The notes under the pieces were generated by a model. It worked only from the letters and a program-made list of their open reading frames with translations. It had not been told where the DNA came from and ran no database searches. Shown piece by piece: positions 2,416 to 41,351 of a DNA stretch of 64,000 nucleotides; the stretch's first letter is position 1; each line of letters starts with the position of its first letter. The DNA comes from a virus (taxonomy: Duplodnaviria; Caudoviricetes): the IMG/VR virus record IMGVR_UViG_3300037047_000246. One strand, given 5' to 3'. The position numbers and the translations under genes were made by a program.

Positions 2416-2760
2416 TTGATGTCAGCCTCCAAGCCGATTTCTGCCAAAAAAGACTTCGACCGAGTTCCGGTCGACAACATCTTCGATAAGTACTTAGCCA
2501 TATCGAAGAAGCTGTCTGACGTGTCTGTGGCCATCGGTCAAGTTGTTGAAGAGATAATTTCACTGGACCGAGAGATACGTCAGTGCGATCCCGCCAACAA
2601 GCTCATGATGTCGCAGAAGCTCCGAATGAAGGTATTGATTGGAGCTATCTTTCCAGTCCGTCAACACATCGACAGGCTCACGACCAGAATGAACGCTTGT
2701 GCGGCTTTCCGGGAAGCTGTTGTGACAGACGCGTCGCGTGCTGATCCTGCTTTTGAATGA
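2416..2760 (+). CDS. Hypothetical helical protein
   Basis: Stop overlaps the portal start (ATGA). Confidence 0.6.
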   Translation: MMSASKPISAKKDFDRVPVDNIFDKYLAISKKLSDVSVAIGQVVEEIISLDREIRQCDPANKLMMSQKLRMKVLIGAIFPVRQHIDRLTTRMNACAAFREAVVTDASRADPAFE

Positions 2761-5651
2761 GTAAGACAATGGGCAAAAAAGTTGGCGTGCGGCCTGGTGG
2801 TGCAGTCGGCAAGTCTGTCGCTCGTGTCGACAGTCAGCAGGCAATGAAAAAGCCGCTGACCAAACTTGAACGCCAAGCTCGCAGAGAGGCCAAAAGTCAG
2901 TCAATAAGGGTAGCGGCGTACTACGGCGACATGGGTAACTCAAGTTCCATGGCCATCGGACACGCCGAACAGAATTTTTACAGCCCTCAGCTGTCTTCAG
3001 ATTTCTTGGAGCTGCCTCAGGCAGAGCGAGAAAAGAGAGAGCTGTTCAGGTTCTGGTATACTTCGCATCCAATAGTCGGCGCGTCCATCGACTTCCACTG
3101 CTTTCCGCCCGGGGCCCCGGTAATGATGAAAGACGCCACGGTCAGTCCCGTGGAATCTCTGAAAGTTGGTGATGAGGTCGTCAACGGGTTCGGGGAACCA
3201 ACTAAGGTTGTTCAGACTTTCAAACACCATGTATGCGGGCCTATCACTAGGTTCAAAGTGCGCGGCGTGCAATCGCATATCGATTGCACCGAAAACCACC
3301 CGTTCCTTGTCTATCGCTCTTCCCAGATAGACTGCAAACACAGGAAATGCGCCAGTTCTGACCCTGGAAAGCCACGATTTGTGTTTGCAAGAGATCTGCA
3401 GGTGGGCGACTATATCTGTTCACCTTCTCTGGTCAGTGCCAAGCCTGCGTTCAATAAGCGTCAGTTGCGCTTGCTTGGGTACTATGCGGCTGAAGGGTCG
3501 ATATCATACACGAAGTATCTCAAACTTGATAGAGTTGTGTTCACACTCGGTGCTAGCGAGTTCAATACCATTGCCGATGAAATCGCTGAAGCGTTCAGCG
3601 CCGAGTATGCGCACCCGGCGCGAAAACGTGTTAGGAAAGATTCCAGCGCATGCGAGGTCAGGTGCTACAAGAAAGACTTCGCCGAGTTTTGTCACAAGCA
3701 CGTGGGAAGCGGCTCCCACAACAAACAACTTAGTCTAGACATAATAGACTCCCCCAGGGAAGATATACTTGAATTTTTGGGCGCATATTGGAATGGTGAC
3801 GGGAGCCTCACGAAGAACGGGTACGTCGCCACCACGATATCCAAACAGTTGGCTCATCAAATATTCGCTTTGGCTCTAAAAGTTGGGTGGGCGCCCACAT
3901 TGCACGTGGTGAAGCCAAAACGCCGCGCTAGCGGTTTTAAGCCTAAGGGGGACGTATATAGGGTCATCGTCCCGTACCGTGTGCACTCCGAATTTGCCAA
4001 GTACGCCAACTTTGTGCAAGACGGGTACACCGCCAAGTCCACTCGCGAGTATCAGGTCCGAGTTGACTCCAGCGTGCTAAGGCGGGTCGAAGAAGTCGAG
4101 ACTGTTCAATATGATGGTTTTGTTTACAATATCGAAGTTGATGGCGAAGGAGACCGCAAAAGTTACGTCGCATATGGGTTGGCTACCCACAACACCGATG
4201 TGCCTATGTCCAAGATTCGTCTTGCGGCTCCGAAGGGCAAGGACATAAAGCGCAACAAGCAGATTTTGCACTTCTACGAAAACATGTGCAGGCGTTTGCG
4301 CCTATTCCAAACGCTTTACGACGTGACGCATGAATACTGGCTTCACGGCAACGTGTTCATATTTTGCGAAGATCACGACCTGTCCGACGAGCTGCCAGAA
4401 GAGCTCATGGGAAACGGGTCCGGCGAGGATATGGACGCAGTGGGCGAGATTACTGCAGACGGCGTAGCTGTGCTGAAGCAGGAGCCCAGCGAAGCCCAAG
4501 ACAAGTCCAAGCTGATTCAAAAGTTCGTGCAGGACAAATATGAGGGATGGCACCGTCTGCAAATTTTGCCGCCCGAACAAGTGAAGCTGGAAATCTTCCA
4601 GTACACCAATCGCGTGCAGATGGAGCTGGTACCTAGCGAGAAAGATCGCCTGGCTGTCACTAAAGCTCAAGAGCAAAACGATCCGGAAGCAAAAAGAATC
4701 GCTGACGACATTCCTGATCAAATCAAGGACAACTTGCTAAGCGGCCAGCCGATTCCGCTCAACGCGAGCCCGTACGACGATTTCCTGTGCTCGTCGTTCT
4801 GTTACCATCTGGCGCACAAGCGCTCGCCTTACGACGACCGCGGCGTCTCCATCCTGGAAAGGTGCCTCAGGTCGCTGCTGTATCAGGATAAGCTTCGCCA
4901 GGCCCAGACCTCCATCGCTTCTCGCGCGATGACGCCCAAGCGCATCATTTGGGGCGACAAAATGTCGCAACCCGATGTTGATGACCTCAGAGACCAAATA
5001 GATCAGGCACTAATCGACCCTGACTTCACCATCATCACCAACTTTGAGGTTCATTGGGACGAGATTGGGGCTAGAGACAGGCTGTTGGATCTCAATACGG
5101 AGTATGAGATCACCAACAAGATGCTGTTCATTGGCTTGCGCATCACCGAATCGATGCTGACTGGCGAGTCCACTTACTCGGGCGAGCGCATCCATCTGGA
5201 TGTCATGAACACCATGTACCTGCTCTACCGAGAGACGCTCACCGAATTTGTGGAGCAGCAGCTGTTTGCTCCAGTGGCGGAGAAAAAGGGCTTCTGGGAG
5301 GAAGACGAGTTCGGCAACAGGCAGCTTTTGTATCCTAGGCTCCAGTTCACTCGTTTGGCCCTGCGCGACAACACAGAGATGCAGGACTTCATGTTCAATC
5401 TGTATGGGAAGGGGTCCATGCCGATTGACTACATTTACGATTTGTTGAACATCGATTCTGAAAACGCGCACGAGCTGCTCAAGAGAGATATGTTCGGTCC
5501 GAAGGACGCGACGTTCAACGAGGTATTGAGGTCCATGTACCCGAAGATAGGCGAGAAACTTGCTGAAGACAGCAACGCTACAGGCAAGGTGGCTGGCAAC
5601 ATCGGGCTGACTGTCTCCGACAAGGAGGGAGACAGGTTCGGCAAAGAGTAG
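2757..5651 (+). CDS. Portal protein, intein-containing
   Basis: Position between terminase and protease; about 600 aa after splicing; helical portal-like segments (WYTSHPIVGASIDFH|TDVPMSKI; RG.SIL.RC). Confidence 0.75.
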   Translation: MSKTMGKKVGVRPGGAVGKSVARVDSQQAMKKPLTKLERQARREAKSQSIRVAAYYGDMGNSSSMAIGHAEQNFYSPQLSSDFLELPQAEREKRELFRFWYTSHPIVGASIDFHCFPPGAPVMMKDATVSPVESLKVGDEVVNGFGEPTKVVQTFKHHVCGPITRFKVRGVQSHIDCTENHPFLVYRSSQIDCKHRKCASSDPGKPRFVFARDLQVGDYICSPSLVSAKPAFNKRQLRLLGYYAAEGSISYTKYLKLDRVVFTLGASEFNTIADEIAEAFSAEYAHPARKRVRKDSSACEVRCYKKDFAEFCHKHVGSGSHNKQLSLDIIDSPREDILEFLGAYWNGDGSLTKNGYVATTISKQLAHQIFALALKVGWAPTLHVVKPKRRASGFKPKGDVYRVIVPYRVHSEFAKYANFVQDGYTAKSTREYQVRVDSSVLRRVEEVETVQYDGFVYNIEVDGEGDRKSYVAYGLATHNTDVPMSKIRLAAPKGKDIKRNKQILHFYENMCRRLRLFQTLYDVTHEYWLHGNVFIFCEDHDLSDELPEELMGNGSGEDMDAVGEITADGVAVLKQEPSEAQDKSKLIQKFVQDKYEGWHRLQILPPEQVKLEIFQYTNRVQMELVPSEKDRLAVTKAQEQNDPEAKRIADDIPDQIKDNLLSGQPIPLNASPYDDFLCSSFCYHLAHKRSPYDDRGVSILERCLRSLLYQDKLRQAQTSIASRAMTPKRIIWGDKMSQPDVDDLRDQIDQALIDPDFTIITNFEVHWDEIGARDRLLDLNTEYEITNKMLFIGLRITESMLTGESTYSGERIHLDVMNTMYLLYRETLTEFVEQQLFAPVAEKKGFWEEDEFGNRQLLYPRLQFTRLALRDNTEMQDFMFNLYGKGSMPIDYIYDLLNIDSENAHELLKRDMFGPKDATFNEVLRSMYPKIGEKLAEDSNATGKVAGNIGLTVSDKEGDRFGKE
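3099..4193 (+). mobile_element. Intein (365 aa) in portal, with LAGLIDADG endonuclease
   Basis: Starts CFPPGAPVMMKD, ends SYVAYGLATHN|T. Motifs LLGYYAAEGS and FLGAYWNGDGS. Confidence 0.92.
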
Positions 5652-23137: not shown

Positions 23138-23398
23138 ATGACTGCTCACCAAGTCCAGTTCCACGCCTCGTCGGATGTTGCGACGAGCTTGCGGATGGGA
23201 TATGCTCTGCGGTGCCGCAGATGCGGCTCCAACGTCGCGGCATGGCTCGACATGAGGCATTTCAGGAACGTTCTCGGCACCAAAAGTCTCGAAGAGCGGA
23301 TGCACGTCAAGCTCGAGCTGGAGTGGACGCACCAAGTGCCTCATGACTGCGACGAAGCCATGGCGATCAACACGGTGCGCATGGTGCAAGAGTCGTGA
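23138..23398 (+). CDS. Small Cys-rich protein (CRRCG)
   Basis: C-terminus DCDEAMAINTVRMVQES. Confidence 0.7.
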   Translation: MTAHQVQFHASSDVATSLRMGYALRCRRCGSNVAAWLDMRHFRNVLGTKSLEERMHVKLELEWTHQVPHDCDEAMAINTVRMVQES

Positions 23399-23441
23399 GT
23401 CTCGCGCATTTTGTGGTTCGAATTCCGGCGCTTGGGCTACC

Positions 23442-23470
23442 TTGACTCGACCCGGACGAAGTGTTATTTT
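23442..23470 (+). promoter_or_regulatory. Sigma70-like promoter
   Basis: TTGACT-17 nt-TATTTT with extended -10 TG; predicted +1 near 23477, the A of an ATG. Confidence 0.6.
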
Positions 23471-23476
23471 TGAATT

Positions 23477-23515
23477 ATGCACTCGCTTAGATCTGACTGG
23501 AACTGCCACTTGTAA
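23477..23515 (+). CDS. Probable leaderless leader peptide MHSLRSDWNCHL (UAA stop; read-through gives LPRGPP...)
   Basis: ATG 6 nt after the -10 box, no SD; in frame with the downstream gene. Confidence 0.5.
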   Translation: MHSLRSDWNCHL

Positions 23516-23587
23516 CTACCTCGCGGTCCCCCGTCGCCGTCGCTGCTACCAACACCAGAGCAAGTGACGATTGAGACGGAGGACATC

Positions 23588-23953
23588 ATGAAGCAGTCAG
23601 TTGTAAGCATCAAGCATTGGATTAAGGCCAGCATGGCCGAATCGCTCGAGATCCGCAAGCAGATACGCGCATCTGAGGGCGACGAACGCTCCCGCCTCTG
23701 GGGATGTAAGCGCAGCCTTGGTGACGACACTCGCCATATGCTGCTTGCCTACGCGTTTCTGCGCGGCAGGCTGTACTCGGCGACAGAGTGGAAGTGCGCC
23801 CCCAATAACAAACCCCGCCCCTCCTTCGTGCAGCATTTCCTTGAGGTCTCTTTGCCCAAGGGAGAGCCTTTGCCGGCCGAGTGGGATAAAGATAGCATCA
23901 AGGCGTGGCTGGCCCGCCCGATGGCCTCCGAGGCCAAGGAGCAGGCAGCATGA
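23588..23953 (+). CDS. Conserved phage hypothetical protein (RHxxLAYAFLRG type)
   Basis: GGAGGA RBS; motif recalled from genes next to PTH2 in phages. Confidence 0.75.
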   Translation: MKQSVVSIKHWIKASMAESLEIRKQIRASEGDERSRLWGCKRSLGDDTRHMLLAYAFLRGRLYSATEWKCAPNNKPRPSFVQHFLEVSLPKGEPLPAEWDKDSIKAWLARPMASEAKEQAA

Positions 23954-24396
23954 GGACGATTGTCAAGACCGAGCTTGTGCCAGCCGAGGAGGTCACTTAC
24001 ACGACGTACGGCTGCGACCTGTGCGACTTCACGTCGGACGATGAAGACAACATCAAGCTGCACCACGGCAAGGAGCATGCGTGCAAGCGCAAGATGGAAG
24101 TGGACGGTGTCGAACTGTATTGGTTCGACACGGAGGAGGATGCCCAGACCTGGATCGAGCAGGATGAGTACGGCGCCGATGAGCGCAAGGTGCGTTGGTC
24201 TGACCCCGGATGGTACACCGCCTCGTGGTCGACCGGGCCGTGCAGGCGCGGCTGCTGTACGCGAAGCTGCCGATCGCTCGAATCTGTGGGCTCCTACCTG
24301 TCTGAACTGGAGTACGCGGCCGAGCAGGCCGAACAGCAGGCTGACAAGAAGCGCCGCCTGGCTCAGGCGATTCGCCAGGAGGTTGGCGATGGCTGA
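23950..24396 (+). CDS. Hypothetical protein with C2H2-like zinc finger
   Basis: CDLCDF...HHGKEH; ATGA overlap with the previous gene. Confidence 0.7.
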   Translation: MRTIVKTELVPAEEVTYTTYGCDLCDFTSDDEDNIKLHHGKEHACKRKMEVDGVELYWFDTEEDAQTWIEQDEYGADERKVRWSDPGWYTASWSTGPCRRGCCTRSCRSLESVGSYLSELEYAAEQAEQQADKKRRLAQAIRQEVGDG

Positions 24397-24715
24397 GAAG
24401 CTCTTTCTGGTCACTCGCGCAGATCTGCGGCCGGGTCAGCAGGCGGTTCAGGCTGCCCACGCAGCACACCAGTTTTGTGTCGATTTCCCAACTGAGTTCG
24501 CGGCCTGGTTTGAACGTTCCAACACTTTGGCAATGCTCACTGTGCCCGACGAACAGGCGCTGCGGCAGTTGGCTGACCTGGCAGATGACTGGGACTTGAA
24601 GTTGTCGATGTTTCGCGAGCCTGACCTTGGCAACGCTTTGACTGCTTTGGCGCTCGAGCCAGGTTCAGGCACCAGAAGGCTGTGCCGCAATCTGCCGCTA
24701 GCTCTCGGCGGCTGA
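24389..24715 (+). CDS. Peptidyl-tRNA hydrolase, PTH2 family
   Basis: LVTRADL.PGQQAVQAAHA, FREPDLGNALTALA; AGGAGG RBS. Confidence 0.85.
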   Translation: MAEKLFLVTRADLRPGQQAVQAAHAAHQFCVDFPTEFAAWFERSNTLAMLTVPDEQALRQLADLADDWDLKLSMFREPDLGNALTALALEPGSGTRRLCRNLPLALGG

Positions 24716-24788
24716 CTACCTCGGAAATTTAGCTGCCTGGAGCGTAGCGGCGGCCAGTGGAAGCCATCCGCGCGAAAGGTATCAAGAA

Positions 24789-25022
24789 GTGACATTCCCG
24801 GTGACCGAATCAGACCTGTGGAGCGTATACCCACGGGCGACCCACTGCTGGAGGCTCGTATCCACTGACGCGGACCGGGTCGAAGTGTACGAATGCGATC
24901 GGTGCTCGGCCAGGAAGTTCATCTACAACGACGTGAACGTTCAAGTGTATGACGCGGCTGGCCGAGAAGCGTCCATGGTCGAGTGCGAATACTACGGGAT
25001 AGCGAACGTTATGGAAGAGTGA
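24789..25022 (+). CDS. Small Cys-containing hypothetical protein
   Basis: HCW...CDRC; C-terminus CEYYGIANVMEE. Confidence 0.6.
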   Translation: MTFPVTESDLWSVYPRATHCWRLVSTDADRVEVYECDRCSARKFIYNDVNVQVYDAAGREASMVECEYYGIANVMEE

Positions 25023-25069
25023 CTCTCGGCGCATTTGTCGCGCAGTTTGCGAACAAGGATAGCACACAA

Positions 25070-25159
25070 GCCCTCGTAGCCCAGCGGTCGAAGGCAGGCG
25101 GCTTTAAACCGTCCACGAGCGAGAGCTCGTCACCGGGGGTTCGACTCCCTCCGAGGGCA
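25070..25159 (+). tRNA. Class II tRNA with anticodon UUA (ochre suppressor); amino acid uncertain (Tyr/Leu/Ser-like)
   Basis: Acceptor GCCCTCG/CGAGGGC with A73; D arm GCC/GGC; anticodon stem GGCGG/CCGTC with loop CT-TTA-AA; variable arm ACGAGC-GAGA-GCTCGT; T arm GGGGG-TTCGACT-CCCTC; CCA not encoded. Confidence 0.9.
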
Positions 25160-25160
25160 C

Positions 25161-25721
25161 TTACTGCGATCGTGACAGCTTGGCAGCTATTTTTTCGAGC
25201 TGAAGCTGGAAATTTTGCAAAACAAACGGCAGCGCTATGGAAACCCTGCCGTCTCCACGGTCCGCGCCGTATATTGTCAGATCGAACGCTCCCCAAGACA
25301 CTGGCGCAGGCAGCGGTCCTGCCGTTTTGGCACCAGGCATGTACGACAGCGTCACGTGCGGCTTGAACTCAGGCCATTTGGCGCTGTACGACACTCCTGA
25401 GAGGTCGAGCTCCTCTTTCAGGTCTCGCTCCAACTGCATGAGCTCAGGGGACTGCACCGGCAGGATAACTGGGGTGCCGTGGTGGCCCGGGTCGAACGAA
25501 GCCACTTCGCTGCATGTTAGCGTGAACGGCGACGTTCGGCGCGTGACCTTGTGGCAAGCCACCATTGCAGCCGCAAGCTGCTCCATCGATGCTCCGTCGC
25601 CGAGGTACACCACAGTCACGTGCATTTCAGACGCTGCTTGAACGTCGCCCGGCAGCGCGCCTGACATTTGCGCCAGAAGTCTGCCGACTTCCTGCGGGAC
25701 TCGCAGAGCTATCATGGCCAT
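25161..25721 (-). CDS. 2H phosphoesterase (LigT / Acb1-like)
   Basis: Two HxT motifs: MHVTVVY and KPHVTLSY. Confidence 0.85.
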   Translation of the reverse strand: MAMIALRVPQEVGRLLAQMSGALPGDVQAASEMHVTVVYLGDGASMEQLAAAMVACHKVTRRTSPFTLTCSEVASFDPGHHGTPVILPVQSPELMQLERDLKEELDLSGVSYSAKWPEFKPHVTLSYMPGAKTAGPLPAPVSWGAFDLTIYGADRGDGRVSIALPFVLQNFQLQLEKIAAKLSRSQ

Positions 25722-25753
25722 AAGGCCTGCAATCGACAAAACGTTTATCGAGC

Positions 25754-26650
25754 ATGCAGCGTGTGAACGATTTGTATTTGGGCCGCAACGCGCTTGGGCA
25801 CGCCGCATATGCCGGGCGCAATTTCGCTGTCGGAGACCTCGTGGCGCAGTTCTCTGGCGACATCTGCTCAGCTGAGGATCTGCCGGAAATATCGTCCCCG
25901 GAGGACGACAGGTACATGCAGGTGGGCAGAAGCGTCTACATGGGCCCTTCTGGCTGGTTCGACGATTACTGCAACCACTCGTGCGATCCGAACGCCGGCG
26001 TGGCGGACGTCGACGGGTCCATGTGGCTGATTGCCATTCGGCCGATTGAGGCCGGAGATGAAATCGTGTGGGACTACTCCACCACGATGGACGAAGACGA
26101 CTGGGAGATGGATTGCCGGTGCGGCAGCCCTGCGTGCAGAGGCCGAATCCGAGACTTCAAGCACCTGGAGCTCGGCTTGCAGCTCAAGTACGTCAGCCTA
26201 GGCATAGTGCCGGACTTTGTCCTGCAATCAGTGTCGCCTGACCTGCTGTCCTCGGCTCTCCGGTTCATGTCCGGGCAAGAGCCGGACGCGCCTTTGCTGG
26301 AGAAGCTTGCGCTGTCCATAGACGGCCCAAGCAAAAAGAAAAGCAAGGGCAAAGGGGGCAAGTCGCCTCCGACTGTGACTCTGCTCGACGTTGAAATGAC
26401 CGAGGACGGCGGCGTCAAACAGAGCTGGGGCGTGTACGCTGAGGGGCAGAAAGTTGGCGTACACTCGGTGACCGACGCCGAGGGGGACACGAAGATACTG
26501 GGCAACGATCTGGACCTTGGCGAAGGCGGATTGACCGCGCAGCAAGCAGTTGCCCACATCCTGCAGGGTGCCCATCCGAGGTACTATCCGAAGCCTGGGA
26601 AAACTGTGGTGCTGGACAGCGCATTCGTGCACAGCGCCTCTCGGAGCTGA
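25754..26650 (+). CDS. SET-domain protein-lysine methyltransferase with post-SET Cys cluster and C-terminal extension
   Basis: YCNHSCDPN, IEAGDEIVWDY, CRCGSPAC. Confidence 0.9.
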   Translation: MQRVNDLYLGRNALGHAAYAGRNFAVGDLVAQFSGDICSAEDLPEISSPEDDRYMQVGRSVYMGPSGWFDDYCNHSCDPNAGVADVDGSMWLIAIRPIEAGDEIVWDYSTTMDEDDWEMDCRCGSPACRGRIRDFKHLELGLQLKYVSLGIVPDFVLQSVSPDLLSSALRFMSGQEPDAPLLEKLALSIDGPSKKKSKGKGGKSPPTVTLLDVEMTEDGGVKQSWGVYAEGQKVGVHSVTDAEGDTKILGNDLDLGEGGLTAQQAVAHILQGAHPRYYPKPGKTVVLDSAFVHSASRS

Positions 26651-26927: not shown

Positions 26928-26992
26928 GATTTGCCTTCTTTGCCGTTGTGCCCCCATGCAGAACATTACAACTTGCATGGTCCGTCCGTGAC

Positions 26993-27409
26993 ATGGACAA
27001 CATGACTCGGCGACAGCGGTCCAGGCACATGTCTCAGATCAAGGTGTCTGGCACCAGACCTGAACGGGTGCTCAGGCAAATGCTGAAGCAGCTCACCGAG
27101 TCCAGGATGCTGTACAACGTGCGCGGCATGCCCGGCAAGCCAGACGTCGTGGTACCTGCCCTCAAGCTTGCCGTGTTTGTCGACGGATGCTTTTGGCACG
27201 GATGTCCGGAGCACGGCAAAATGCCTAAAAGCCACAAAGAGTACTGGGTGCCTAAAATAGTCGGCAACATGATAAGAGACGAGGACAACGTTGTGGAGTT
27301 GGAAGGCCTTGGATGGACCGTATGGAGGGTATGGGAGCACGACTTGCAGCCCGGCTCTGCATTCAACACCAAGCGCAGGTTGGCTCGCAGGTTGGCTCGA
27401 CTGATTTGA
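26993..27409 (+). CDS. vsr: Very short patch repair endonuclease
   Basis: RSRHMSQIK...TRPE, PGKPDVV, FVDGCFWHGCP, RD..N...L...GW.V.RVWEH. Confidence 0.92.
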   Translation: MDNMTRRQRSRHMSQIKVSGTRPERVLRQMLKQLTESRMLYNVRGMPGKPDVVVPALKLAVFVDGCFWHGCPEHGKMPKSHKEYWVPKIVGNMIRDEDNVVELEGLGWTVWRVWEHDLQPGSAFNTKRRLARRLARLI

Positions 27410-40690: not shown

Positions 40691-41351
40691 ATGATCATCG
40701 AAATACGCGCAGCAGAAGGTGGACAGGACGCCAAACTTCTCGTGCTGGAACAGCTGAGCGTGTACGCAAAGCGCGCCGCTCGCCACTGTCTTTGACCTCG
40801 AAATCTTGGACCAGCGCCCAGGGTCGGTGACCCTGCGGTCCACAAGCCCCAAAGCAGAAGAGTTTTTCCGGAACGAATCAGGAGGTATGCGCTGGCAGCG
40901 GGTGCCGCCCACCGAGAAGCGCGGGCGTGTGCAGACCAGCACAGTTACTGTGGCAGTCTTGCCGGAGCCCGATTTCGAGCAGATGCGCATCAGAGACAGC
41001 GACCTGTCTTTTCGCACCTGCAGAGGGTCCGGGCCTGGCGGACAGAATCGCAACAAGCTCGAGACTGCTGTGCAGGTCACGCATGTGCCGACTGGGCTCT
41101 GCGTCCGGTGCGAGACTGAGCGGTCGCAGCTGCAAAACAAGCAGGGAGCGTTGGCGCTGCTCCGAGCTCGGTTGTGGCAAATTCAGCTGCAGGGGCGCAT
41201 CGACGCGCGTGCTGCTGACCGGAGGCAGCAGATAGGTTCCGGAGAGCGCGGAGACAAGCGCCGGACCATAGCTTTGCAGCGAGACCAAGTTGTCGATCAC
41301 GTGACTGGCCAGACCTGGAAAGCGAAAGCGTATTTGCGAGGTGAGTGGTAA
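40691..41351 (+). CDS. Class I peptide release factor, RF1-like (PxT, GGQ), lacking domain 1; split by a +1 frameshift at CTT-TGA-C (40790-40796)
   Basis: 0 frame MIIEIRAAEGGQDAK...ARHCL*; +1 frame DLEILDQ...ESGGMRWQRVPPTEKRGRVQTSTVTVAVLPE...GSGPGGQNRNK...SQLQNK. Confidence 0.85.

What the first reader, a model, noticed from the sequence alone, without database searches (positions are those of the whole stretch)
25070..25159. Intact ochre-suppressor tRNA (anticodon UUA) in a phage that appears to use the standard code
The cloverleaf is fully paired, with canonical C32 U33 [UUA] A37 and a long variable arm closed by a GNRA loop. G1-C72, A73 and U35 are compatible with Tyr identity; Leu or Ser is possible. 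UUA reads UAA and, by wobble, UAG. Recoded phages are known for TAG and TGA; I know of no TAA reassignment in phages. Long ORFs here translate normally and TAA remains a minority stop, so the tRNA likely serves regulated read-through or interferes with host termination.
Basis: partly seen in the sequence, partly recalled or inferred. Interest (0 to 1): 0.85.

Follow-up and report, generated by a model that had tools for sequence, protein, structure and literature searches.

The report
Ochre suppressor tRNA gating phage operon
A 362-kb phage that uses the normal genetic code keeps an intact tRNA that reads the stop codon UAA, and its conserved target appears to be a single UAA at the head of its own operon, which would explain why standard-code giant phages carry "orphan" suppressor tRNAs.

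Summary
The tRNA is real: ARAGORN calls tRNA-Stop(tta) and Rfam tRNA scores 50.6 bits. A 377-kb relative keeps it at the same place. Seven stem pairs there changed on both sides and the anticodon loop is identical.

The genome uses the standard code. TAA ends 14% of genes, and no conserved gene holds an in-frame TAA.

The tRNA is the last gene of a plus-strand operon:
- a promoter-like site,
- a 12-codon mini-ORF closed by TAA,
- in-frame L-P-R-G-P-P, whose codons pair with the next gene's ribosome-binding site,
- gene A, gene B, a Pth2-fold hydrolase and gene D,
- the tRNA.

In 91 related Pth2 loci, 43 of 73 with enough downstream DNA carry a suppressor tRNA. All 19 distinct loci with both parts match leader stop to anticodon (5 TAA/UUA, 12 TAG/CUA, 2 TGA/UCA).

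My reading: read-through by the tRNA carries the ribosome onto an RGPP arrest motif, which unmasks translation of the operon. The switch itself is inferred, not shown.

The inserted amino acid is unresolved. The body is Ser-like; Tyr is not supported.

This scan had already noted the same pairing, here and in other phages. I re-tested it independently.

The parts
23442..23470 (+). Sigma-70-like promoter TTGACT-17 nt-TATTTT with TG, ending 6 nt before the leader ATG (implies a leaderless mRNA)
   Evidence: It is the only promoter-like site in 23300-25900. G001 has TTGACA-17-TACCAT at the same place (read from the sequence).
23477..23515 (+). Leader mini-ORF MHSLRSDWNCHL closed by TAA (23513-23515), the proposed client stop of the tRNA
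   Evidence: G001 has MTHFL-TAA. The leader stop matches the suppressor anticodon in 19 of 19 distinct loci.
23516..23587 (+). In-frame read-through segment L-P-R-G-P-P... (RGPP codons at 23522-23533), running without a stop into gene A. The RGPP codons form the anti-Shine-Dalgarno arm.
   Evidence: The MFE fold pairs GGUCCCCCGUC with GACGGAGGAC, z -2.5. G001 shows the same pairing, z -3.3. In 25 distinct leaders the RGPP codons mostly pair in the MFE fold with a GGAG/AGGA-type segment just upstream of an AUG; about 20 by my reading of the list, with no shuffle control. It is the only such mini-ORF leader in the genome.
23575..23590 (+). Shine-Dalgarno (GGAGG 23578-23582) and ATG (23588-23590) of gene A, sequestered by the RGPP-coding segment
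23588..23953 (+). Gene A, 121 aa, unknown function; a conserved partner of the Pth2 gene
   Evidence: Homologues lie upstream of Pth2 in 24 other loci. No Pfam or PHROG hit. The model (pLDDT 91) is a long helical hairpin plus small helices with no convincing fold match.
23950..24396 (+). Gene B, 148 aa, start overlaps the stop of gene A (ATGA); not conserved in relatives
24389..24715 (+). Pth2-type peptidyl-tRNA hydrolase, 108 aa
   Evidence: Pfam PF01981, 28.6 bits. The model (pLDDT 96) matches archaeal Pth2 3erj_A at TM 0.84, E 5e-07, and the top 14 PDB hits are all Pth2/Bit1.
24777..25022 (+). Gene D, about 81 aa (start uncertain), with a CxxC motif; conserved in G001 and L112 only
25070..25159 (+). 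Class II-shaped tRNA, anticodon UUA (25104-25106), discriminator A, no encoded CCA: the ochre suppressor
25161..25808 (-). Convergent 2H phosphoesterase (LigT/ThpR/Acb1-like) whose TAA stop abuts the tRNA 3' end. Its link to the module is uncertain.
   Evidence: Pfam PF13563, PF02834 and PF23474. NCBIfam RNA 2',3'-cyclic phosphodiesterase, below cut-off. It is syntenic only in G001 and L112.

Best explanation
The tRNA is a functional phage-encoded ochre suppressor. It serves one conserved stop codon, not a changed genetic code. It is the last gene of the operon promoter / leaderless mini-ORF / TAA / in-frame x-P-R-G-P-P / gene A / gene B / Pth2 hydrolase / gene D / tRNA.

Proposed mechanism (inferred):
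1. Without the tRNA, ribosomes terminate at the leader TAA, two codons before the Arg codon. The RGPP-coding RNA stays paired with the Shine-Dalgarno sequence of gene A.
2. Host enzymes must process the tRNA, add its CCA and charge it; the aminoacyl-tRNA synthetase Pfam families and the CCA-adding family I searched for gave no hit in the phage.
3. Once the tRNA is available, it reads the TAA. The ribosome runs onto the RGPP arrest motif and stalls there.
4. The stall holds the anti-SD arm open, so gene A and the coupled downstream genes, including Pth2, are translated.

The suppressor thus acts as a trans-acting signal, or as a gauge of suppression against release-factor activity, for its own operon.

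Shown here:
- the gene's integrity and conservation;
- standard code;
- operon layout and synteny;
- stop/anticodon co-variation;
- the Pth2 fold;
- predicted SD pairing.

Inferred:
- co-transcription;
- actual read-through, arrest and activation;
- the direction of regulation.

The inserted amino acid is unresolved, with Ser the most likely.
For: - tRNA calls and orthologue. Seven stem pairs changed on both sides and the anticodon loop is invariant.
- Standard code: ORF coverage is 0.89 under the standard code against 0.91 with TAA read as sense. Stops are TGA 248, TAG 77, TAA 54.
- No in-frame TAA lies inside genes conserved with G001. There is no TAA-specific conserved extension.
- Operon layout.
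- Of 91 Pth2-homologue loci, 43 of 73 with at least 700 nt downstream carry a same-strand suppressor tRNA within 2.5 kb (38 cta, 7 tta, 3 tca).
- All 19 distinct loci with both a stop-x(<=10)-R[GA]PP leader and a suppressor match: 5 TAA/tta, 12 TAG/cta, 2 TGA/tca. Ignoring relatedness, the odds of a full match under random assignment are about 1 in 10^6 (my arithmetic).
- UUA modules fall in 3 places on the Pth2 tree. They use at least three unrelated tRNA scaffolds: class II in G000 and G001, and different class I bodies among L112, L113, L116 and L181. The anticodon is what is kept.
- The RGPP codons pair with the SD.
- RAPP and RGPP are the strongest arrest motifs of their class (PMC12992588, PMC10951233).
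- Module loci are standard-code locally: 0.88 coverage and no specific gain when the matched stop is read as sense.
Against:
- Co-transcription rests only on the absence of a detected promoter or terminator between Pth2 and the tRNA.
- Pro-Pro codons are inherently complementary to GGAGG, so some of the SD pairing comes for free.
- Many Pth2 loci showed no RGPP leader under my regular expression.
- Eight loci have a leader but no detected suppressor. L172 and L182 have a TAA leader with no UUA tRNA within 3 kb.
- The Pth2 backbone tree is poorly resolved, so the number of independent switches is uncertain.
- A tRNA that reads every UAA, and by wobble UAG, cannot be strictly private. A second, global role is not excluded.
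Confidence: 0.68

Rival explanations
1. Global read-through. The main job of the tRNA is to suppress UAA (and UAG) genome-wide. It would either derange host termination during takeover or extend some phage proteins. The leader would then be only a gauge that scales Pth2 and gene A to the resulting load of stalled or dropped-off peptidyl-tRNA.
For: - Any charged UUA tRNA competes with release factors at every UAA (established knowledge of ochre suppressors).
- The co-regulated enzyme is a peptidyl-tRNA hydrolase.
- The phage also carries an RF1-type factor.
- Published guesses for orphan phage suppressors go in this direction (PMC8386662, PMC6102473).
Against: - 38 of 48 sister modules use CUA. 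From general knowledge it reads the rarest bacterial stop, a poor weapon.
- The phage shows no TAA depletion, no excess of nearby back-up stops and no conserved extensions after TAA.
- G001 has the module but no RF homologue.
- The host and its stop usage are unknown.
Confidence: 0.2
2. Code change or its precursor. TAA is, or is becoming, a sense codon in part of the genome, as TAG and TGA are in recoded phages. The tRNA would be the enabling step.
For: Standard-code relatives of recoded phages can carry a suppressor tRNA, read there as a possible precursor of code change (Borges et al. preprint, 10.1101/2021.08.26.457843).
Against: - Reading TAA as sense gains only 2% coverage, less than reading TGA as sense.
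- No in-frame TAA lies in genes conserved between G000 and G001.
- TAA still ends 14-20% of genes.
- The module occurs in standard-code loci with all three stops.
- No jumbo phage with TAA recoding was found in a survey of 10,754 genomes (PMC13037316).
Confidence: 0.04
3. Accident. The gene is a recently mutated or decaying sense tRNA (for example Ser UGA changed to UUA), or an assembly error, without function.
For: A single base change from Ser(UGA), Leu(UAA) or Tyr(GUA) gives UUA. Raw reads could not be inspected.
Against: - The same anticodon and an identical loop occur in an orthologue whose neighbouring proteins are only 47-71% identical. That orthologue has 7 compensatory stem changes.
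- The matching TAA leader is present in both genomes.
- Co-variation holds across 19 loci.
Confidence: 0.03
4. Counter-defence. The tRNA is a decoy or spare for a host anticodon nuclease, and the abutting 2H phosphoesterase is part of a tRNA repair or anti-CBASS unit.
For: The 2H enzyme's stop codon abuts the tRNA 3' end, and it is syntenic in G001 and L112. Jumbo-phage Pth2 has been discussed in the context of rescuing ribosomes after tRNA cleavage (PMC7824862).
Against: - The 2H gene is absent from the other module loci, whereas the leader, Pth2 and the tRNA persist.
- A decoy gives no reason for the anticodon to track the leader stop.
Confidence: 0.05

Closest known systems
Orphan suppressor tRNAs of cultured standard-code jumbo phages: XacN1 (two CUA), Atu_ph07 (UCA), phiKp24 (tRNA-Sup-TTA)
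   Same: A suppressor tRNA in a large phage whose genes read normally under the standard code. For XacN1 the authors looked for read-through targets and found none (PMC5852040). See also PMC6102473 and PMC8386662.
   Different: Here the tRNA has a specific conserved client (the leader stop) and a fixed genomic partner (Pth2). I did not test whether those three phages have the same module. Their Pth2 genes, if any, were not hit at E <= 1e-3.
Suppressor tRNAs of stop-codon-recoded phages (TAG to Gln, TGA to Trp; crAss-like, Lak, Jade, Agate and others)
   Same: A phage-encoded tRNA overrides a stop that the host reads as stop. It is proposed to time the expression of particular genes (10.1101/2021.08.26.457843, PMC9523058).
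   Different: Those phages carry many in-frame stops in structural and lysis genes and show low standard-code coding density. This phage has one gated leader and normal density. The stop is TAA, for which no phage recoding is reported (PMC13037316).
RAPP/RGPP regulatory arrest peptides (ApdA, ApdP; SecM-like monitoring substrates)
   Same: A short upstream ORF with R-[A/G]-P-P, whose stalling ribosome would open a structure that hides the next gene's ribosome-binding site (PMC7897499, PMC10951233, PMC12992588).
   Different: Known examples sense protein export and are translated constitutively. Here the arrest motif lies behind a stop codon, so it is reached only by read-through. The regulated genes are a Pth2 hydrolase and an unknown protein, in a phage.
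Laboratory ochre suppressors (E. coli supC/supM tRNA-Tyr, supG/supL tRNA-Lys, supB tRNA-Gln; phage T4 psu tRNA-Ser and tRNA-Gln derivatives). Cited from my own knowledge, not re-checked here.
   Same: Anticodon UUA in an otherwise normal tRNA that reads UAA and, by wobble, UAG. The A36-A37-A38 context fits an efficient suppressor.
   Different: Those arose by single mutations under selection in the laboratory and have a sense-tRNA parent in the same genome. This one is a conserved natural gene. Its class II, Ser-like body is joined to an acceptor stem (GCCCUCG, C2-G71) unlike the bacterial tRNA-Ser sequences I retrieved (GGAGAGG, GGATGGG).
prfB (RF2) autoregulation through an in-frame UGA. Cited from my own knowledge.
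   Same: A single in-frame stop early in a transcript acts as a gauge of termination efficiency and sets the expression of a translation-termination protein.
   Different: prfB uses a +1 frameshift and senses RF2. Here the stop is read by a dedicated tRNA encoded in the same operon, and the output goes through an arrest peptide.

Membership tests
tRNA (Rfam RF00005) | Cloverleaf that scores above the family's gathering threshold | tested here: met
   50.6 bits against a threshold of 29, with model positions 1-71 all matched. ARAGORN agrees.
Ochre suppressor tRNA | Anticodon 5'-UUA-3' in a 7-nt loop with U33 and a purine at position 37 | tested here: met
   The loop is C-U-UUA-A-A, identical in the G001 orthologue.
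Ochre suppressor tRNA | Is aminoacylated and inserts an amino acid at UAA in vivo | not testable with these tools
The aminoacyl-tRNA synthetase Pfam families searched for and the CCA-adding family gave no hit in the phage, so host enzymes must do this.
Bacterial tRNA-Ser (class II) | Long variable arm with a stem of about 5-7 bp, and a Ser-type D arm | tested here: met
   The variable stem has 6 bp plus a GAGA loop. The only full-length BLAST hits in 401 Pseudomonadota genomes are tRNA-Ser(gct, tga).
Bacterial tRNA-Ser (class II) | Acceptor identity elements G2-C71 and G73 (E. coli rules, from my own knowledge) | tested here: not met
   The pair is C2-G71 in both phages. The discriminator is A here and G in G001. 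Serylation is therefore likely but not assured.
Bacterial tRNA-Tyr | A73 kept, with a Tyr-type body (short variable stem) and Tyr tRNAs as nearest relatives | tested here: not met
   The orthologue has G73. No tRNA-Tyr appears among the BLAST neighbours. The variable stem has 6 bp.
Stop-codon-recoded phage (TAA as sense) | Clear gain in coding density when the stop is read as sense, and in-frame stops inside conserved genes | tested here: not met
   Coverage goes from 0.894 to 0.913 for TAA, less than for TGA. No internal TAA appears in alignments with G001 genes.
Stop-gated Pth2 / suppressor-tRNA module (described so far only in this scan's notes) | Pth2-fold gene with a same-strand suppressor tRNA just downstream | tested here: met
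   The Pth2 model matches 3erj_A at TM 0.84. The tRNA lies 354 nt downstream of the Pth2 stop (24715 to 25070). 43 of 73 related loci have the same arrangement.
Stop-gated Pth2 / suppressor-tRNA module (described so far only in this scan's notes) | Upstream mini-ORF whose stop matches the tRNA anticodon and is followed within 10 codons by R-[G/A]-P-P | tested here: met
   TAA followed by LPRGPP, 876 nt upstream of Pth2. 19 of 19 distinct loci match.
RAPP/RGPP arrest peptides | R-[A/G]-P-P motif in an upstream ORF coupled to a structure that masks the downstream ribosome-binding site | tested here: met
RAPP/RGPP arrest peptides | Demonstrated ribosome stalling at the motif | not testable with these tools
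   This needs toeprinting or ribosome profiling.

The most novel reading that the evidence does not exclude
Phage suppressor tRNAs in standard-code genomes are not relics or code-change tools. They are dedicated trans-acting regulators. The phage reserves one stop codon in a leader as a private switch, its own tRNA flips that switch, and an arrest peptide converts the read-through into translation of a Pth2-centred operon. This would be a tRNA-operated translational switch found across many giant phages with all three stop codons. It would give a general answer to the 'orphan suppressor tRNA' puzzle raised for XacN1, Atu_ph07 and phiKp24.
Probability: 0.5. Interest if true: 0.85.

Novelty: new variant of a known kind. 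Interest (0 to 1): 0.74.

Why it matters
Suppressor tRNAs have been reported repeatedly in cultured and metagenomic giant phages that plainly use the standard code. Published work either found no target or only speculated (PMC5852040, PMC6102473, PMC8386662).

This locus and its relatives give such a tRNA a concrete, testable client: one leader stop that co-varies with the anticodon. They also give it a fixed enzymatic partner, Pth2. If the mechanism holds, three things follow:
- It is a natural gene switch operated by a tRNA.
- It is a natural precedent for synthetic suppressor-tRNA gene circuits, such as the feedforward loop described in the abstract of PMC7969014.
- It changes how suppressor tRNAs should be read when phage genetic codes are inferred, because the presence of such a tRNA is not evidence of recoding.

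The UUA form is the rarer one, 7 of 48 modules here.

Tried and rejected
- **TAA as sense.** Coding coverage under four codes gave no case for recoding.
- **First two in-frame-stop screens.** These used six-frame windows and all ORFs of at least 80 aa against G001. They were swamped by conserved non-coding frames and I discarded them. The repeat with codon-model gene calls found only alignment-end artefacts, plus one in-frame TAG.
- **Conserved C-terminal extensions after TAA.** 1-2 of 31 against similar rates for TGA and TAG. The best case is simply the next gene in another frame.
- **Back-up stops, +4 context and TAA avoidance.** Nothing specific.
- **GC content against stop choice across modules.** No relation, p 0.85.
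- **Direct sequence searches with the tRNA.** No match in the phage collection, in E. coli genomes, or for an exact anticodon-arm pattern in viral contigs.
- **D-arm pattern searches.** These returned class-II-shaped phage tRNAs with Cys or Asn anticodons, not suppressors. The D arm alone therefore does not define the family.
- **Single-protein Pth2 query in viral contigs.** Found nothing. The two-sequence alignment worked.
- **Function of gene A.** No Pfam, PHROG or Atlas hit and no convincing fold match. The best PDB rows have E >= 0.5, including a 54-residue overlap with the SerRS helical arm, which I do not rely on.
- **Phage-encoded charging or maturation enzymes.** No hit for six Pfam families: five aminoacyl-tRNA synthetase families (PF00587, PF00749, PF00152, PF00579, PF00133) and the CCA-adding family PF01743.
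- **My regular expression for the C-terminal tag noted by others.** It matched only 4 genes, so I drew no conclusion.

Full report
**1. The observation**

ARAGORN finds exactly one tRNA in the 64-kb window, tRNA-Stop with anticodon tta, at 25070-25160 on the plus strand. Rfam's tRNA model matches 25070-25159 end to end at 50.6 bits (gathering score 29, E 6.8e-08).

Read from the sequence, the features are:
- **Acceptor stem:** 7 bp, GCCCUCG/CGAGGGC.
- **D stem:** 3 bp plus a C.A mismatch.
- **Anticodon stem:** 5 bp.
- **Anticodon loop:** C-U-UUA-A-A.
- **Variable arm:** 6-bp stem closed by GAGA.
- **T arm:** normal.
- **Discriminator:** A, with no encoded CCA.

**2. The genome**

The window lies in a complete 362,524-bp virus record with direct terminal repeats and 57% G+C. 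The record has only four tRNAs: Leu(cag), Gln(ttg), Met(cat) and this one.

The code is standard:
- Standard-code ORFs cover 0.89 of the genome. Reading TAA as sense adds 0.02, less than reading TGA as sense adds.
- A codon-model gene call gives 379 genes, ending in TGA 248, TAG 77 and TAA 54.

**3. Conservation**

A 376,674-bp relative, G001 (IMGVR_UViG_3300036987_000310), has proteins 47-71% identical in this region. It carries a tRNA-Stop(tta) at the syntenic position.

The two tRNAs align without gaps:
- 98% of stem cells pair.
- 7 of 26 pairs changed on both sides, spread over the acceptor, anticodon, variable and T stems.
- The anticodon loop is invariant.
- Slid-partner controls give 0-1 such pairs.

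This rules out a recent accident. The discriminator differs, A here and G there.

**4. No recoding and no other client found**

I used codon-model gene calls of each genome as queries against the other. The only stops inside alignments were at alignment ends, plus one in-frame TAG outside the window.

Alignments that run past a stop are no more frequent for TAA than for TGA or TAG, and the best TAA case is the next gene in another frame.

TAA-ending genes show no excess of nearby back-up stops.

**5. Context**

The tRNA closes a plus-strand operon:
- **Promoter-like site:** TTGACT-17-TATTTT at 23442-23470, the only one in 23300-25900, ending 6 nt before an ATG.
- **Leader mini-ORF:** 12 codons, 23477-23512, closed by TAA at 23513-23515.
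- **Read-through segment:** in-frame L-P-R-G-P-P-..., running without a stop into gene A.
- **Gene A:** 23588-23953.
- **Gene B:** 23950-24396.
- **Pth2-type hydrolase:** 24389-24715.
- **Gene D:** about 24777-25022.
- **The tRNA:** 25070-25159.

G001 has the same layout, with M-T-H-F-L-TAA-M-P-R-G-P-P.

The Pth2 assignment rests on Pfam PF01981 and on a confident model (pLDDT 96). That model matches archaeal Pth2 3erj_A at TM 0.84, and the top 14 PDB hits are all Pth2/Bit1.

That note changed my reading, so I tested it independently.

**6. Test of the link between tRNA and leader**

I collected 91 Pth2 loci with a Pth2 alignment, 10 from viral contigs and 80 from metagenome contigs, plus this window.

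- Of 73 loci with at least 700 nt downstream, 43 carry a same-strand suppressor tRNA within 2.5 kb. The first-listed anticodons are cta 38, tta 7 and tca 3.
- I then looked up to 1.4 kb upstream for a stop followed within 10 codons by R-[G/A]-P-P. 22 loci (19 distinct) have both a leader and a suppressor.
- All 19 match: 5 TAA/tta, 12 TAG/cta and 2 TGA/tca. With these class sizes, a full match under random assignment has odds of about 1 in 10^6 if relatedness is ignored (my arithmetic).

On relatedness:
- On a Pth2 tree the UUA modules fall in three places, but the backbone is weak.
- The UUA tRNAs use unrelated scaffolds. The body is class II (91 nt) only in G000 and G001. It is class I (73-75 nt) in L112, L113, L116 and L181, and those class I sequences differ from one another.
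- L112 is the closest Pth2 relative of this phage and nevertheless has a different tRNA body.

So the anticodon is conserved and not the tRNA.

Exceptions:
- Eight loci have a leader but no detected suppressor. These include L172 and L182, which have a TAA leader.
- Two distant stop-RGPP matches more than 1.6 kb upstream do not match the anticodon, and I regard them as chance.

**7. How the leader would work**

- In this phage the MFE fold pairs the RGPP-coding RNA (GGUCCCCCGUC) with the Shine-Dalgarno region of gene A (GACGGAGGAC), z -2.5.
- G001 shows the same pairing, z -3.3.
- In 25 distinct leaders the RGPP codons mostly pair with a GGAG/AGGA-type segment just upstream of an AUG. That is about 20 by my reading of the list, and there is no shuffle control.
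- RAPP and RGPP are the most arrest-prone motifs of their class and act at the peptidyl-transferase centre (PMC12992588, PMC10951233).
- Only one such mini-ORF leader exists in each genome.

The most economical reading is this. Termination at TAA leaves the stem closed. Read-through by the tRNA carries the ribosome onto RGPP, where it stalls and frees the ribosome-binding site of gene A. Genes B and Pth2 overlap their upstream genes and would follow by translational coupling.

Co-transcription of the tRNA, the arrest itself and the sign of the regulation are all inferred.

**8. Why a Pth2 operon?**

This is not settled. Two readings fit:
- The tRNA is essentially a private signal, or a timer, for this operon.
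- It also causes some general read-through, and the leader scales Pth2 and gene A to that load.

So does the lack of any TAA adaptation in the phage.

The module loci are standard-code locally: coverage is 0.88, with no specific gain when the matched stop is read as sense. The module is therefore a feature of standard-code phages.

**9. Amino-acid identity**

- The body is Ser-like. The only full-length BLAST neighbours in 401 Pseudomonadota genomes are tRNA-Ser(gct, tga). The acceptor and T arm resemble tRNA-Arg.
- The acceptor stem (C2-G71) lacks the E. coli Ser determinants, and the discriminator varies.
- A GCYCYYG-type acceptor stem followed by G recurs among class I suppressors of the module.
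- The five aminoacyl-tRNA synthetase Pfam families and the CCA-adding family I searched for gave no hit in the phage.

I rate Ser most likely, at about 0.45. Tyr is not supported. Because the scaffolds differ between loci, the inserted residue probably does not matter.

**10. Literature**

- Recoded phages use TAG or TGA. TAA recoding was not found among 10,754 jumbo phage genomes (PMC13037316; 10.1101/2021.08.26.457843).
- Orphan suppressor tRNAs in standard-code jumbo phages are on record: XacN1 (CUA, targets sought and not found, PMC5852040), Atu_ph07 (UCA, PMC6102473) and phiKp24 (Sup-TTA, PMC8386662).
- Pth2 is known to be common in jumbo phages (PMC7824862).
- My searches turned up no paper linking a suppressor tRNA, a stop-gated arrest leader and Pth2.
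- Within this scan the pairing had been noted before, in this genome and in other phages (e1-5411531, e1-5364107, e1-5364104).

**11. Verdict**

The tRNA itself belongs to a known kind, the phage suppressor tRNA. Its apparent use is new: it would operate a switch on one matched stop codon in the leader of its own Pth2 operon. This reading still needs experimental proof.

Noticed in passing
window 40691-41351 (+): A short RF1-type release-factor gene: PF00472 at 101 bits, best NCBIfam match RF1, with P-P-T and GGQ motifs. It is preceded by CTT TGA C, the motif of the RF2 frameshift site. tblastn finds no homologue in the related phage G001.
   Followed up: partly
L055:5296-5381, L056:4998-5083, L100:2108-2195, L099:418-502, L101:4430-4514; G001 tRNA-Gly at 139641-139722 and 151019-151102: Phage or prophage tRNAs with long variable arms but Cys, Asn or Gly anticodons. 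The Cys and Asn ones share the exact D arm GTAGCCYAGYGGTCGAAGGCA with the suppressor. This points to a class-II-shaped scaffold that carries many anticodons in phages.
   Followed up: partly
L192 (Mycobacterium phage QBert, MK359345) 2599-3737: In cultured Bixzunavirus phages the annotated peptidyl-tRNA hydrolase is followed 310 nt downstream by a CUA tRNA annotated 'tRNA-OTHER'. A two-codon mini-ORF ATG TTT TAG sits 27 nt before the upstream gene. There is no RGPP, so this may be a variant of the module in a tractable host.
   Followed up: partly
G000 genome coordinate 336195 (+), outside the window: An in-frame TAG in a small gene aligns with Trp in a G001 paralogue, with good conservation on both sides. 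A UUA tRNA could read it by wobble, or it may be a pseudogene.
   Followed up: no
L104:4192-4265: A tRNA-like gene with a 9-nt anticodon loop CCUCUAGUG lies directly after a CUA suppressor tRNA in a sister module. ARAGORN could not assign an anticodon.
   Followed up: no
L172 and L182: These loci have a TAA-RGPP leader and a Pth2 gene but no UUA tRNA within 3 kb. The only tRNA has the loop AUUUUAA (called Lys UUU) and lies 1.7 kb downstream.
   Followed up: no
window 25161-25808 (-), 25754-26650 (+), 26948-27409 (+): A 2H phosphoesterase (LigT/Acb1-like) whose stop abuts the tRNA, then a SET-domain protein and a Vsr-type mismatch endonuclease.
   Followed up: partly
window 23588-23953 (+): Gene A, the first gene behind the leader, is conserved next to Pth2 in at least 24 other loci. 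It folds confidently (pLDDT 91) as a long antiparallel helical hairpin plus small helices, with no known relative.
   Followed up: partly
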